A stretch of 64,000 nt of DNA from the IMG/VR virus record IMGVR_UViG_2721755676_000001; one strand, written 5' to 3'. The notes beneath the pieces were generated by a model. That model saw only the letters and a program-made list of their open reading frames with translations, did not search any database and was not told the DNA's origin. This document shows positions 47,160 to 54,298 of the stretch, in pieces. The translations under genes were made by a program, and so were the position numbers. Position 1 is the stretch's first letter. Each line of letters opens with the position of its first letter. Source of the DNA: a virus (lineage: Duplodnaviria > Heunggongvirae > Uroviricota > Caudoviricetes).

Positions 47160-49268
47160 ATGTCTAAAAAACGTTCCATCAAAGAGGTTCAGGACTTCCG
47201 TGACAGTGTAAAACGAGTAGTCGCTCTCCTTTCAGGTAAAAACATCCCTGTTGCAGAACGAGGGGACGACGCTTATGTACGCTATAACGATGATGGAGAG
47301 CCAATTCTCGTAAACATCCCATCAATCCCGGATAACGCAACACCGGCATTGATGAATGCTGTGCGCGGATTTCTCGATCATGAGGTTGCTCACATTTTGT
47401 TTACCGATATTCGTGTGTCCAACAAAATGAGAGAAAAAGGACGCGTTCCTTCCTGGTCGCTATGGAATGCCTTAGAAGACGTGTTCATCGAGCGAAAAAT
47501 GGGTCAGGTCTTTAACGGAACAAGACGTAATCTGATGGCAACTCAGCGCCTTATAATCGAAAAAGTCTTTAAACCAAAGGCTTCAGAGGCTATTGCTTAT
47601 TGTGGCAAAGATCAGCGCGCGCTTTTTCTAAACTTCTTTCTCTGTCCGGTTGTAAGAGCCTGGGATGGCCAAGCACCGTTCGTAGATTTCATGGATGAAC
47701 ATTGGCCTGTCATTGAGAAACCAATTTCATTATTAAAAGAACATGGTATCGATGTGGCCGTGCGTAACATGTCTTGCACCGAGGATTGTGTAAAGGTGGC
47801 TGCGACCATAGCTAAGATCCTCAAAGACACTGAAAGTGAAAGCAAAGGTAAGGAGTCAGCTCCGGGAAAAACTTCCGATCCTTCAGACGCTGACCAGACG
47901 GATGCCTCTGGAGAAAACAATGAAGACAACGAAGATCATGAGACTCCCTCAGTGTTAGATAATCACAAATCTATCAAATCAGAATCACATAGTAAGTACA
48001 AACATGATAATAACGACAGTGATGATTCAGATAATTCTGAATCATCAGAAACAATATTCGATGATACAGAAAATGATAAAGAGGTATCAGATTCTGATGC
48101 TTCTGATAACGCGGCGTCAGAATCATTAACCGCTGACCACGAAAAAAGAAAAACGACAGAAGACGGCTCTTCAGATATCCCAACTCCGTCAAAAATGAGT
48201 CTGGAAGAGGCTTTAGAGGAGCTGGATAGCATAGAAGATGAAGTCGGAGGCATGACAGAAGATGCTCTATCCGAAACGATTAAAAGCGAGTTAACAGAAA
48301 GCTCGAAAAGCGAATACAGGCCATACAATCGCTCATACGACTTCATCGGCTCGATTGATCAGGCAGAAGCCCATATCAAACGGCTTATTAAAACATTCTC
48401 CGATATTGATTTGGGAGGATATCCAATCAGCCGCTATCGCATCGTTCCTGAAGGCAACCAGCTCTTCGACAAATATATTGAAAAGCATCTTTCGTCAGGT
48501 GTTTCGTCGACGCTGGCAAAAGACCTGGAGCGAGCAATAGCAAGCAGAAACAGAGTTCAGTTTATACCGGGCCAGCGTCGGGGGCGCATTCATGGTTCTA
48601 GTATCTACAGATTAGCAATGAATGATGCTCGCGTGTTTCGTAAAAAAGAAGAATCTAAAGCCGTTAACGCCTGTGTTCAACAAGTGATTGATTTATCAGG
48701 TTCAATGAGTGGTATAACGATTAAACTGGCTCTTGCAAGTGCATATACCATCGCCGATGCCCTTGATCGAATAAATGTTCCCAACATTATCACCGGCTTC
48801 ACTACATTTGGTAGTCATATGGCGGCAGGAGAACTTAAGGCTGTCAAGTATGAGTTCTCTCGCTTTGAATCTTTAATGCTACCTATCATCAAAAATTGGA
48901 ATGAAAAGGTAAATTCTCGCGAAGTTCGCTCACGTATGGGGTGCGTAGGCTACACATTCCCACTTCTTAATAACGTGGATGGTGAAAGCATAGCCAGCCT
49001 TGCATCGTTATTTTCCGGTCGCATGGAGGACAGGAAGATCATGCTTGTTCTGAGTGATGGCGCGCCGTGGGCTGTTGGGAGAGGTTTTGACGCTCATTTG
49101 CGTTCAGTTGCGAAGCAAATTGAAACGCAGACTGATATTGATTTGATGGCAATTGGCATCATGACTGACGCACCGGAGAAATTTTACTCAAATCATGCCC
49201 TGGTAACGAGCGTTGATAGTCTTGGTTCATCTGTAGTTACTGAACTATCTCGTATCATTTTAAAGTGA
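47160..49268 (+). CDS. CobT-like protein with C-terminal von Willebrand A domain
   Basis: MIDAS motif VIDLSGSMSG in C-terminal domain; long acidic Asp/Ser/Glu-rich linker; paired with downstream AAA+ ATPase. Confidence 0.7.
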   Translation: MSKKRSIKEVQDFRDSVKRVVALLSGKNIPVAERGDDAYVRYNDDGEPILVNIPSIPDNATPALMNAVRGFLDHEVAHILFTDIRVSNKMREKGRVPSWSLWNALEDVFIERKMGQVFNGTRRNLMATQRLIIEKVFKPKASEAIAYCGKDQRALFLNFFLCPVVRAWDGQAPFVDFMDEHWPVIEKPISLLKEHGIDVAVRNMSCTEDCVKVAATIAKILKDTESESKGKESAPGKTSDPSDADQTDASGENNEDNEDHETPSVLDNHKSIKSESHSKYKHDNNDSDDSDNSESSETIFDDTENDKEVSDSDASDNAASESLTADHEKRKTTEDGSSDIPTPSKMSLEEALEELDSIEDEVGGMTEDALSETIKSELTESSKSEYRPYNRSYDFIGSIDQAEAHIKRLIKTFSDIDLGGYPISRYRIVPEGNQLFDKYIEKHLSSGVSSTLAKDLERAIASRNRVQFIPGQRRGRIHGSSIYRLAMNDARVFRKKEESKAVNACVQQVIDLSGSMSGITIKLALASAYTIADALDRINVPNIITGFTTFGSHMAAGELKAVKYEFSRFESLMLPIIKNWNEKVNSREVRSRMGCVGYTFPLLNNVDGESIASLASLFSGRMEDRKIMLVLSDGAPWAVGRGFDAHLRSVAKQIETQTDIDLMAIGIMTDAPEKFYSNHALVTSVDSLGSSVVTELSRIILK

Positions 49269-49363
49269 ACAAAACAGCCTTTACGATAAGTAACCACTTA
49301 CGATATATAATGATATATTTATATAAGAAGTTGAACGCTCATTAGAGAACAAAGGAAAAACGC

Positions 49364-53800: not shown

Positions 53801-54298
53801 GAAATGGGCTTAGGTGATGAACTAATCCGCCCCAGCATTGGTATTAAGCCGAAAATCATGATCATTCTGGACAATGCGAACGGCAATGATGCTCGAACCG
53901 GTTACTTTATGGAGAACGGATACGACGACTTTAAGGCCAAGCTATTGACGGCTGGAGATTTACGCATGGGCGATCTCTATGTCACAGGTGTTTGCAAGAA
54001 GGTTAAAGACAAAGAAAAAGACTACACCAAAGACGAGATCGGCCAGTTCACCGACTTTATGCGTGAAGAGATCAATCTGGTGCGTCCGACCTATGTGCTG
54101 ACGTGTGGCAGCCGGGCAACTTCATTGTTTAACAACAAAAACAAGCCATCCGATTTGGTCGGCAGGAAGGAGTATCTTCCAGACCTTGACGTTACTGTCT
54201 TTTACGGGTTTAACCCCAACATTCTTTACTTCAGACCTGAAGAGGGAGAACGACTAGAAGCGATATTAGCCGACGTAGCAGAAACCATTAAGACGTGA
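50780..54298 (+). CDS. DNA polymerase III alpha subunit-like (DnaE-type) replicative polymerase
   Basis: N-terminal PHP-like domain; block [43 protein letters not shown]...[11 protein letters not shown] closely matches the conserved DnaE polymerase core. Confidence 0.9.
   Translation: [1172 protein letters not shown]

What the first reader, a model, noticed from the sequence alone, without database searches (positions are those of the whole stretch)
47160..54298. CobT/CobS-like vWA and AAA+ pair placed directly upstream of a phage DnaE-type polymerase
A vWA-domain protein with a long acidic disordered linker and a MoxR/CobS-like AAA+ ATPase precede a small Cys-rich ORF and a 1172-aa Pol III alpha-like polymerase. 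The pairing and position suggest a role in replisome assembly or polymerase maturation rather than cobalamin metabolism. No clamp, clamp-loader or proofreading exonuclease gene is evident in the window.
Basis: partly seen in the sequence, partly recalled or inferred. Interest (0 to 1): 0.5.

Follow-up and report, generated by a model that had tools for sequence, protein, structure and literature searches.

The report
Phage CobS/CobT-like ATPase–protease pair beside DnaE
An SSU5-type phage-plasmid of E. coli carries, in one operon with its DNA polymerase, a known but uncharacterised "CobS/CobT" pair. The pair is very unlikely to make vitamin B12 and looks like an ATP-driven protein remodeller with an intact zinc-protease motif, target unknown.

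Summary
Window 47160-54298 encodes a CobT-like protein (N-domain, acidic linker, vWA/MIDAS), a CobS-like MoxR AAA+ ATPase, a conserved 67-aa Cys-rich protein and a 1172-aa DnaE with its catalytic aspartates. A hairpin terminator closes the unit.

The window is an SSU5-type phage-plasmid, 99.7% identical to plasmids in E. coli genomes, so the genes are already catalogued.

Cobalamin synthesis is very unlikely:
- Both proteins score far below the NCBI cobaltochelatase equivalog cut-offs (65 vs 759 bits; 87 vs 559 bits).
- No CobN is annotated in the element.
- Its ribonucleotide reductase is the B12-independent class Ia.
- The CobT-like N-domain keeps an HExxH motif that is invariant in 145 divergent relatives and absent from all 120 bacterial CobTs examined.

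The CobT–CobS–Cys4–DnaE order holds in every sampled lineage of this clade. Relatives in Vibrio phage ICP2 and a T4-like cyanophage also sit among replication genes, but those in actinophages and Herelleviridae do not visibly.

A replication-linked role is therefore a reasonable inference from context, not a demonstrated one. A DnaQ-like exonuclease lies elsewhere in the element. No clamp or clamp loader is annotated.

The parts
46849..47061 (+). 70-aa ORF (phrog_2627) opening the rightward operon. It is divergent from the HTH regulator at 46212-46598 on the minus strand.
   Evidence: A 59-61-aa ORF sits in the same place in distant relatives.
47160..49268 (+). CobT-like protein: N-domain with an HExxH motif, acidic disordered linker, shaft and vWA/MIDAS domain
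   Evidence: Pfam PF06213 E=7e-27 and PF11775 E=1e-81. phrog_1576 E=2e-300. TIGR01651 gives 65 bits against a cut-off of 759.
47379..47393 (+). HEVAH (aa 74-78), a zincin-type HExxH motif. E106, D107 and E111 lie on the next long helix.
   Evidence: Invariant in 145 of 145 aligned representatives at 33-75% identity. Lies on helix 62-81 of the AF2 model, pLDDT 89.5. Absent in 120 of 120 bacterial CobTs.
47826..48305 (+). Acidic, serine-rich disordered linker (aa 223-382)
   Evidence: 31% D+E, 19% S. Its length varies among relatives, whose proteins run from 649 to 790 aa.
48690..48704 (+). MIDAS motif DLSGS (aa 511-515) of the vWA domain
   Evidence: D511, S513 and S515 are invariant in 41 divergent sequences and in all phage lineages checked.
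49364..50599 (+). CobS-like MoxR-clade AAA+ ATPase with an N-terminal Cys/His extension of about 140 aa
   Evidence: AAA_5 E=2e-15. Best PDB match is CobS 9ujv, E=1e-25. TIGR01650 gives 87 bits against a cut-off of 559. Walker A and B intact.
50602..50805 (+). 67-aa Cys-rich protein (GCFG...C-x2-C-x5-C). It is a shortened form of the 165-185-aa proteins found between CobS and DnaE in relatives.
   Evidence: phrog_6337 E=3e-45. C19, C22 and C28 are invariant in 6 lineages. Present in all 80 IMG/VR loci that reach that far.
50780..54298 (+). DnaE-type (C-family) DNA polymerase. Catalytic D418/D420/D568 are present. The PHP domain is degenerate. The C-terminus is UDG-like instead of an OB fold plus tau-binding domain.
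53813..54292 (+). UDG-family-4-like C-terminal domain of DnaE, lacking the catalytic motifs
   Evidence: TIGR00758 E=3e-7 (30 bits against a cut-off of 125). PF03167 E=9e-4. UDG domain also recorded on the DnaE of relatives.
54305..54329 (+). Terminator-like hairpin with a 10-bp stem, immediately after dnaE

Best explanation
The pair is not a cobalt chelatase. It is a phage MoxR-type motor (CobS-like AAA+ hexamer) working with an adaptor-effector, the CobT-like protein.

By analogy with the solved CobS-CobT complex, the adaptor's shaft enters the ATPase ring. Its vWA/MIDAS face grips a client protein. Its N-domain docks on the ATPase small domain. In this phage clade the N-domain keeps a complete HExxH site, so the client is probably remodelled and, in most lineages, also cut.

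The genes head the lytic replication operon (70-aa ORF, CobT, CobS, Cys4, DnaE, terminator). They are therefore made together with the polymerase. The client is most likely a replication-associated protein, either from the phage (DnaE, the Cys4 protein) or from the host replisome.

Shown: domain make-up, intact motifs, operon structure, conserved synteny, and the differences from true CobS/CobT. Inferred: the complex architecture, proteolytic activity, and the identity of the client.
For: - Closest solved relatives are CobS (E=1e-25) and CobT (E=3e-15), and the shaft/vWA region aligns.
- The CobSTN preprint describes the motor-adaptor-effector arrangement and an M48C-like fold for CobT_N.
- HExxH, E106, D107 and E111 are invariant in 145 divergent clusters. 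All 120 bacterial CobTs have D[SA][MI]AL there instead (hhalign E=3.8e-4).
- MIDAS and Walker motifs are intact.
- Cobaltochelatase equivalog cut-offs are not reached. No CobN is annotated in the element and its RNR is class Ia.
- Operon layout: gaps of 2-98 nt, gene overlap, terminator after dnaE.
- Synteny with DnaE holds in every sampled lineage of the clade, down to 28-31% identity.
- The pair sits in replication clusters of ICP2 and of cyanophage P-RSM4.
- Iyer et al. 2021 independently described a phage MoxR/vWA pair with an N-terminal metallopeptidase domain.
Against: - No experiment exists on any phage member.
- Nickievirus and Stenotrophomonas phage BUCTxx99 have lost HExxH yet keep the pair next to DnaE. 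Proteolysis is thus not needed everywhere.
- Gene order may reflect only shared early timing.
- In Gordonia, Tsukamurella, Listeria and Staphylococcus phages no replication gene is annotated nearby.
Confidence: 0.5

Rival explanations
1. It is an auxiliary metabolic gene pair. Viral CobS/CobT joins a host CobN to raise cobalamin synthesis and so feeds B12-dependent nucleotide synthesis. This is the usual annotation ('porphyrin/cobalamin biosynthesis').
For: - Pfam CobT/CobT_C and the best PDB matches are the cobaltochelatase subunits.
- This reading is proposed in the literature (PMC8651126; PMC2984593; PMC7029224).
Against: - Scores are 65 and 87 bits against equivalog cut-offs of 759 and 559.
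- No CobN is annotated in the complete element.
- E. coli makes no corrin ring and has no cobN (textbook knowledge, not tested here). V. cholerae, host of ICP2, likewise.
- The element's own RNR is class Ia.
- HExxH is intact, unlike all 120 bacterial CobTs examined.
Confidence: 0.04
2. It is a virion-assembly chaperone/protease. The MoxR-vWA pair helps fold or process structural proteins, as proposed for T4-like jumbo phages and shown for tail development in Acidianus two-tailed virus.
For: - Proposed by Iyer et al. 2021 for the homologous pair in group 2.2 jumbo phages.
- The peptidase motif fits prohead or tail protein processing.
Against: - Here the pair lies in the replication operon just after the repressor/integrase switch, and a terminator follows dnaE. 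It is far from the capsid and tail genes.
- The same is true in RHEph10, Nickievirus, ICP2 and P-RSM4.
Confidence: 0.12
3. It is a host-takeover or counter-defence protease. This would be an early ATP-dependent remodeller/protease that removes a host protein (a defence factor, a nucleoid protein or a transcription protein) unrelated to the replisome. Its place beside DnaE would reflect early timing only.
For: - It holds an early-operon position.
- Homologues occur in very different phages with three kinds of replicase (801 phage records for the ATPase).
- In Gram-positive phages it lies among unknown early genes.
Against: - It has no match to known defence or anti-defence models apart from one marginal DrmE hit, E=1e-3.
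- Linkage to DnaE and the Cys4 protein is very tight over deep divergence.
- HExxH has been lost in two lineages that keep the synteny.
Confidence: 0.25

Closest known systems
Aerobic cobaltochelatase motor CobS-CobT (CobNST; PDB 9ujv, 9uka, 21vt, 21vu)
   Same: - It is the best sequence match in the PDB.
- The two-gene pairing is the same.
- The CobT architecture is the same: N-domain, acidic disordered linker, shaft, vWA/MIDAS.
- The AAA+ Walker motifs are shared.
   Different: - It scores far below the equivalog cut-offs.
- There is no CobN partner in the element.
- The N-domain has HExxH where CobT has D[SA][MI]AL.
- The CobS-like protein has an extra N-terminal region of about 140 aa with a Cys/His motif.
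- The genomic context is phage replication, not cob genes.
Phage 'cobST' cluster / MoxR-vWA-metallopeptidase pair of tailed viruses (cyanophage CobS plus 'peptidase'; Liu et al. 2021; Iyer et al. 2021)
   Same: - It is the same family. P-RSM4 'peptidase' has HEVGH...LED..IEK and DWSGS, and its cobS is detected by tblastn.
- BFVD fold hits are viral CobT-like/vWA proteins, including those of haloarchaeal viruses.
   Different: This clade is linked to a DnaE-type polymerase and a Cys4 protein. It also has the CobS N-terminal extension, which is absent from ICP2 and the cyanophage.
Other MoxR-vWA remodellers (NorQ/NorD, CbbQ/CbbO, CoxD/CoxE, RavA/ViaA)
   Same: They share the AAA_5/CbbQ_C-type ATPase plus a MIDAS-bearing adaptor acting on one client complex.
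   Different: Those adaptors carry no peptidase-like domain, and their clients are metalloenzymes or Rubisco. The client here is unknown.
Bacterial DNA polymerase III alpha (DnaE)
   Same: Palm, thumb and fingers and the HhH domain are present, as is the catalytic Asp triad.
   Different: - Eight of nine PHP metal ligands are replaced.
- There is an insertion of about 50 aa at 741-791.
- The OB fold and tau-binding domain are replaced by a UDG-like domain.

Membership tests
Cobaltochelatase CobNST (CobS and CobT subunits) | CobT scores at equivalog level (NCBIfam TIGR01651, cut-off 759 bits) | tested here: not met
   65.1 bits
Cobaltochelatase CobNST (CobS and CobT subunits) | CobS scores at equivalog level (NCBIfam TIGR01650, cut-off 558.6 bits) | tested here: not met
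   86.6 bits
Cobaltochelatase CobNST (CobS and CobT subunits) | A CobN catalytic subunit is available in the element | tested here: not met
   None of the 135 annotated features of the 99.6% identical complete plasmid is a CobN.
Cobaltochelatase CobNST (CobS and CobT subunits) | A CobN and the substrate hydrogenobyrinic acid a,c-diamide are available in the host | not tested
   That E. coli lacks cobN and de novo corrin synthesis is textbook knowledge. No protein search of E. coli genomes was possible with these tools.
Cobaltochelatase CobNST (CobS and CobT subunits) | CobT domain order: N-domain (PF06213), acidic linker, vWA (PF11775) with MIDAS | tested here: met
Cobaltochelatase CobNST (CobS and CobT subunits) | N-domain motif as in true CobT (RG..D[SA][MI]AL[RK].ACHD, no HExxH) | tested here: not met
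   The window has DHEVAH. None of 120 bacterial CobTs has HExxH. hhalign (E=3.8e-4) places H74/E75/H78 on S/M/R.
MoxR-clade AAA+ / vWA adaptor pairs | AAA_5-type ATPase with intact Walker A and B | tested here: met
   PF07728 E=2e-15. GHAGTGKS and VYLADE present. CbbQ_C recorded on relatives.
MoxR-clade AAA+ / vWA adaptor pairs | Adjacent gene for a vWA protein with an intact MIDAS (DxSxS...T...D) | tested here: met
   D511, S513, S515, T548 and D633 are invariant or nearly so.
MoxR-clade AAA+ / vWA adaptor pairs | Helix-2 insert typical of the clade | not tested
   No structure of the ATPase was predicted.
Zincin (HExxH) metallopeptidases | HExxH on an alpha-helix | tested here: met
   H74, E75 and H78 lie on helix 62-81 of the AF2 model, pLDDT 89.5. 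Invariant in 145 clusters.
Zincin (HExxH) metallopeptidases | Third metal ligand on a following helix | tested here: inconclusive
   E106, D107 and E111 are invariant on helix 97-117.
Zincin (HExxH) metallopeptidases | Fold similarity to a solved zincin | tested here: inconclusive
Zincin (HExxH) metallopeptidases | Peptide-bond hydrolysis | not testable with these tools
   Needs biochemistry.
C-family replicative polymerase (DnaE) | Pol III alpha core domains and three catalytic aspartates | tested here: met
C-family replicative polymerase (DnaE) | PHP domain with nine metal ligands (proofreading-competent type) | tested here: not met
   Alignment to M. tuberculosis DnaE1 replaces 8 of 9 ligands. 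The alignment is weak, E=0.027.
C-family replicative polymerase (DnaE) | OB fold and tau-binding C-terminal domain | tested here: not met
   NCBIfam DnaE models align only up to about aa 955. The C-terminus matches UDG family 4 weakly.
C-family replicative polymerase (DnaE) | Beta-clamp-binding motif after the HhH domain | tested here: inconclusive
   DQAELM at aa 969-974 is conserved as DQ..L[ML] in two distant relatives. Resemblance to the E. coli QADMF motif is from memory.
Uracil-DNA glycosylase family 4 | Model score above cut-off and the catalytic motifs GEAPG and HPS | tested here: not met
   30 bits against a cut-off of 125. LDNAN and FNPN stand in place of the motifs (the motif consensus is from memory).

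The most novel reading that the evidence does not exclude
The CobS/CobT-like pair, together with the conserved Cys4 protein, is a dedicated ATP-driven maturation or loading machine for the phage replisome. It might activate or assemble the tau-less, OB-less DnaE, or strip host replisome parts such as the beta clamp for it. By extension, the 'cobS/cobT' genes counted as cobalamin genes in marine viromes would be replication factors.
Probability: 0.15. Interest if true: 0.8.

Novelty: already known. Interest (0 to 1): 0.38.

Why it matters
Viral cobS/cobT are core genes of T4-like cyanophages. They are routinely scored as cobalamin 'auxiliary metabolic genes', yet no function has been shown.

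The same family sits in an E. coli phage-plasmid whose host cannot use a cobalt chelatase, and close relatives infect E. coli K-12 (PhiR41_1). That gives a tractable genetic system for settling the question.

If the pair proves to be a replication-linked remodeller/protease, many virome annotations would need correcting. A new type of accessory factor for C-family polymerases would also be defined.

Tried and rejected
- A single-sequence PDB search with the CobT-like N-domain gave only chance hits.
- A small profile that accidentally included one full-length sequence aligned only the C-terminal half.
- hhalign against the single solved CobT_N sequence was weak, E=0.11. It became usable only with 120 bacterial CobTs.
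- The first homologous-protein search and the IMG/VR scan returned almost only close SSU5-type relatives. Diversity had to come from the representative library, tblastn against phage records and contig look-ups.
- PADLOC gave one marginal DrmE hit, treated as noise.
- Pfam found nothing for the Cys4 proteins or the CobS N-terminal extension.
- Xanthomonas phage JGB6 looked frameshifted throughout and was not used.
- A preprint on phage-plasmid heteroresistance could not be read.
- I considered a repressor-cleaving role, because the pair follows the HTH/integrase switch. I set it aside because strictly lytic phages carry the pair.
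Full report
**What the window is**

The 7.1-kb region is 97-98% identical to Escherichia phages CMS-2020a and PhiR41_1, 95% to Cyrano and about 81% to Salmonella phage SSU5. It is 99.7% identical to plasmids found in 244 of 5,426 complete E. coli genomes, always on plasmids. The window therefore comes from an SSU5-type phage-plasmid. RefSeq already annotates the three large genes as 'cobaltochelatase CobT-related protein', 'AAA family ATPase' and 'dnaE'.

**Checking the observation**

- The 702-aa protein matches the Pfam CobT N-domain (E=7e-27) and the CobT_C vWA domain (E=1e-81). Between them lies a linker of about 160 aa with 31% D+E and 19% S. The MIDAS motif DLSGS is intact.
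- The 411-aa protein is an AAA_5 (MoxR-clade) ATPase with intact Walker A and B motifs.
- The 1172-aa protein has the PHP, Pol III alpha, finger and HhH domains. Its three catalytic aspartates, D418, D420 and D568, align with Taq D463, D465 and D618.
- The 67-aa Cys-rich ORF is a real gene. It matches phrog_6337 (E=3e-45) and is present in every related locus. Its C-x2-C-x5-C motif is invariant in six lineages, where the protein is usually 165-185 aa long. PGAP and the PhiR41_1 record leave it unannotated.

**Operon structure**

The genes follow a divergent HTH regulator and an integrase. They are separated by 98, 95 and 2 nt, followed by a 26-nt overlap. The strongest terminator-like hairpin in the region (10-bp stem, 54305-54329) comes directly after dnaE. 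The unit is thus 70-aa ORF, CobT-like, CobS-like, Cys4, DnaE. Downstream lie a UvsY-like protein, a gp32-type SSB, a 5'-3' exonuclease and RecA/UvsX. Upstream in the window lie a DnaB-like helicase, a primase and a ligase.

**Is it a cobalt chelatase?**

The closest solved structures are indeed CobS (E=1e-25) and CobT (E=3e-15). Several tested features nonetheless speak against membership.
- Against the NCBI equivalog models the proteins score 87 bits (cut-off 559) and 65 bits (cut-off 759).
- No CobN is annotated among the 135 features of a 99.6% identical complete plasmid. E. coli has no aerobic corrin pathway; this is textbook knowledge that I could not test here.
- The element's ribonucleotide reductase is class Ia NrdAB, which does not need B12.
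- The N-domain differs at a key site. It has DHEVAH at aa 73-78 and E106, D107 and E111 on the next helix.

On that last point, a phmmer scan of 1.84 billion cluster representatives found 1,110 clusters at E<=0.001. In an alignment of the best 145, at 33-75% identity, these seven residues are 100% conserved. The solved CobT has GDSMALR at the matching place, and none of 120 bacterial CobTs (49-74% identical to it) has an HExxH motif. A profile-profile alignment (E=3.8e-4, 131 columns) places H74, E75 and H78 on S, M and R/K.

The CobSTN cryo-EM preprint reports that CobT_N has a peptidase-M48C-like fold. True CobT thus looks like an inactivated form, and the phage protein like a form with the site intact. 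Iyer et al. 2021 independently described a phage MoxR/vWA pair whose vWA protein carries an N-terminal metallopeptidase domain.

**Limits of the peptidase inference**

**Gene context across phages**

Within this clade the order CobT, CobS, one or two small proteins including Cys4, then DnaE with a UDG-like tail, then gp32, 5'-3' exonuclease and RecA is kept in the following:
- all 80 IMG/VR loci, at CobT identity from 41 to 100%;
- four metagenomic lineages at about 28-31% identity;
- Rhizobium phage RHEph10, two Nickieviruses and Stenotrophomonas phage BUCTxx99.

Outside the clade the picture is mixed.
- In Vibrio podovirus ICP2 the pair lies upstream of the primase, helicase and a family A polymerase.
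- In T4-like cyanophage P-RSM4 the 'peptidase' (HEVGH, DWSGS) and cobS lie between gp46 and the gp45 clamp, inside the replisome cluster.
- In Gordonia, Tsukamurella, Listeria and Staphylococcus phages the neighbours are unannotated.
- In Roseobacter phage CRP-810 the pair lies at a genome end, near denV and an integrase.

CobS-like ATPases occur in 801 phage records. The link is therefore to replication modules in several unrelated replicase systems, not to DnaE as such, and it is not visible everywhere.

**Most likely mechanism**

By analogy with CobS-CobT, a CobS-like hexamer would grip the shaft that precedes the vWA domain. The MIDAS face would bind a client. The N-domain would dock on the ATPase small domain, where its HExxH site could cut the remodelled client. 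The architecture is inferred from homology and the client is unknown. Co-transcription with DnaE, and the deep conservation of the Cys4 protein between the ATPase and the polymerase, make a replication-associated client the best guess. I put about 0.5 on 'remodeller/protease with a replication-linked client', 0.25 on a host-takeover or anti-defence client, 0.12 on virion assembly and 0.04 on cobalt chelation.

**The polymerase and the 'missing' accessory genes**

The PHP domain has lost eight of the nine metal ligands seen in M. tuberculosis DnaE1 (a weak alignment), so intrinsic proofreading is unlikely. A 185-aa DnaQ/RNase_T-type 3'-5' exonuclease (E=6e-22) is encoded elsewhere in the element, outside the window. 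No clamp or clamp loader is annotated. A conserved DQ..L[ML] motif right after the HhH domain (aa 969-974) is a candidate site for the host beta clamp. The OB fold and tau-binding domain are replaced by a UDG-family-4-like domain that lacks the catalytic motifs.

**Novelty and verdict**

The genes, their pairing and their presence in SSU5-type elements are already in the databases. The cobST cluster of tailed viruses and its reinterpretation as a MoxR/vWA-metallopeptidase pair have both been published.

This analysis adds three things:
- a clear sequence test separating phage-type from true CobT;
- evidence that the cobalamin reading fails in an E. coli element;
- documentation of the conserved CobT-CobS-Cys4-DnaE cassette.

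The 'not cobalamin' part of its interpretation is supported. The 'polymerase maturation' part remains a reasonable but untested hypothesis.

Noticed in passing
window 53813-54292 (DnaE aa 1012-1171): The C-terminus of DnaE is a UDG-family-4-like domain that lacks the catalytic motifs. It stands where bacterial DnaE has the OB fold and tau-binding domain. Relatives in several lineages share it.
   Followed up: partly
window 50795-51307 (DnaE PHP domain); NZ_CP095139.1 96647-97204 (outside the window): Eight of nine PHP metal ligands are replaced. A separate DnaQ/RNase_T-type 3'-5' exonuclease (185 aa, E=6e-22) is encoded elsewhere in the phage-plasmid and is a candidate proofreader.
   Followed up: partly
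L013, L025, L044, L055 and other IMG/VR loci; L001 30116-32455; L096 16986-19067: In many relatives dnaE is 0.8 to about 8 kb longer than here. RecA is 693-779 aa, with an intein-splicing domain recorded in L096. The window carries insert-free alleles of both genes.
   Followed up: partly
window 50602-50805: A conserved Cys-rich ORF (C-x2-C-x5-C invariant) is left unannotated by PGAP and in PhiR41_1. In other lineages it is the N-terminal part of a 165-185-aa protein. Whether it binds metal (Zn or Fe-S) is unknown.
   Followed up: partly
window 49364-49780 (CobS-like aa 1-139): An N-terminal extension carries a C-x2-C...H...H motif and a conserved FP..PTLS stretch. Only the DnaE-linked lineages share it; it is absent from ICP2 and the cyanophage CobS. 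No Pfam match.
   Followed up: partly
window 53000-53152 (DnaE aa 741-791): An insertion of about 50 aa in the fingers region relative to Thermus aquaticus Pol III alpha.
   Followed up: no
window 53687-53701 (DnaE aa 970-974, QAELM): A DQ..L[ML] motif is conserved in RHEph10 and hairong just after the HhH domain. It may be a binding site for the host beta clamp.
   Followed up: partly
L003 8007-10085, L101 5974-8055, L102 5992-7977: Nickieviruses (DSEI[AS]K) and Stenotrophomonas phage BUCTxx99 (DREVST) have lost the HExxH motif. They keep the MIDAS motif, the ATPase and the position next to DnaE.
   Followed up: yes
phage Cyrano record OV696614.1 (hit H4): The pair is annotated there as 'dimethylbenzimidazole phosphoribosyltransferase' and 'cobalamin synthetase'. 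This looks like a name collision with the unrelated Salmonella CobT and CobS.
   Followed up: no
window 54424-58348: A T4-style recombination set (UvsY-like protein, gp32-type SSB, 5'-3' exonuclease, RecA/UvsX) follows dnaE in this siphovirus phage-plasmid.
   Followed up: no
window 47076-47112: A 9-bp inverted repeat (CTGCGCGAA...TTCGCGCAG) without a T tract lies between the 70-aa ORF and the CobT-like gene. It may be a regulatory hairpin.
   Followed up: no
window 42055-42612: Four tRNA genes (Asn, Tyr, Thr, Ser) sit between the ligase and the integrase. A glutaredoxin gene follows at 43862-44107.
   Followed up: no
L094 6435-8627: A distant metagenomic relative has TrfA-type replication initiator and ParA-like genes just upstream of its CobT-CobS-DnaE cassette. 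It too may be a phage-plasmid.
   Followed up: no
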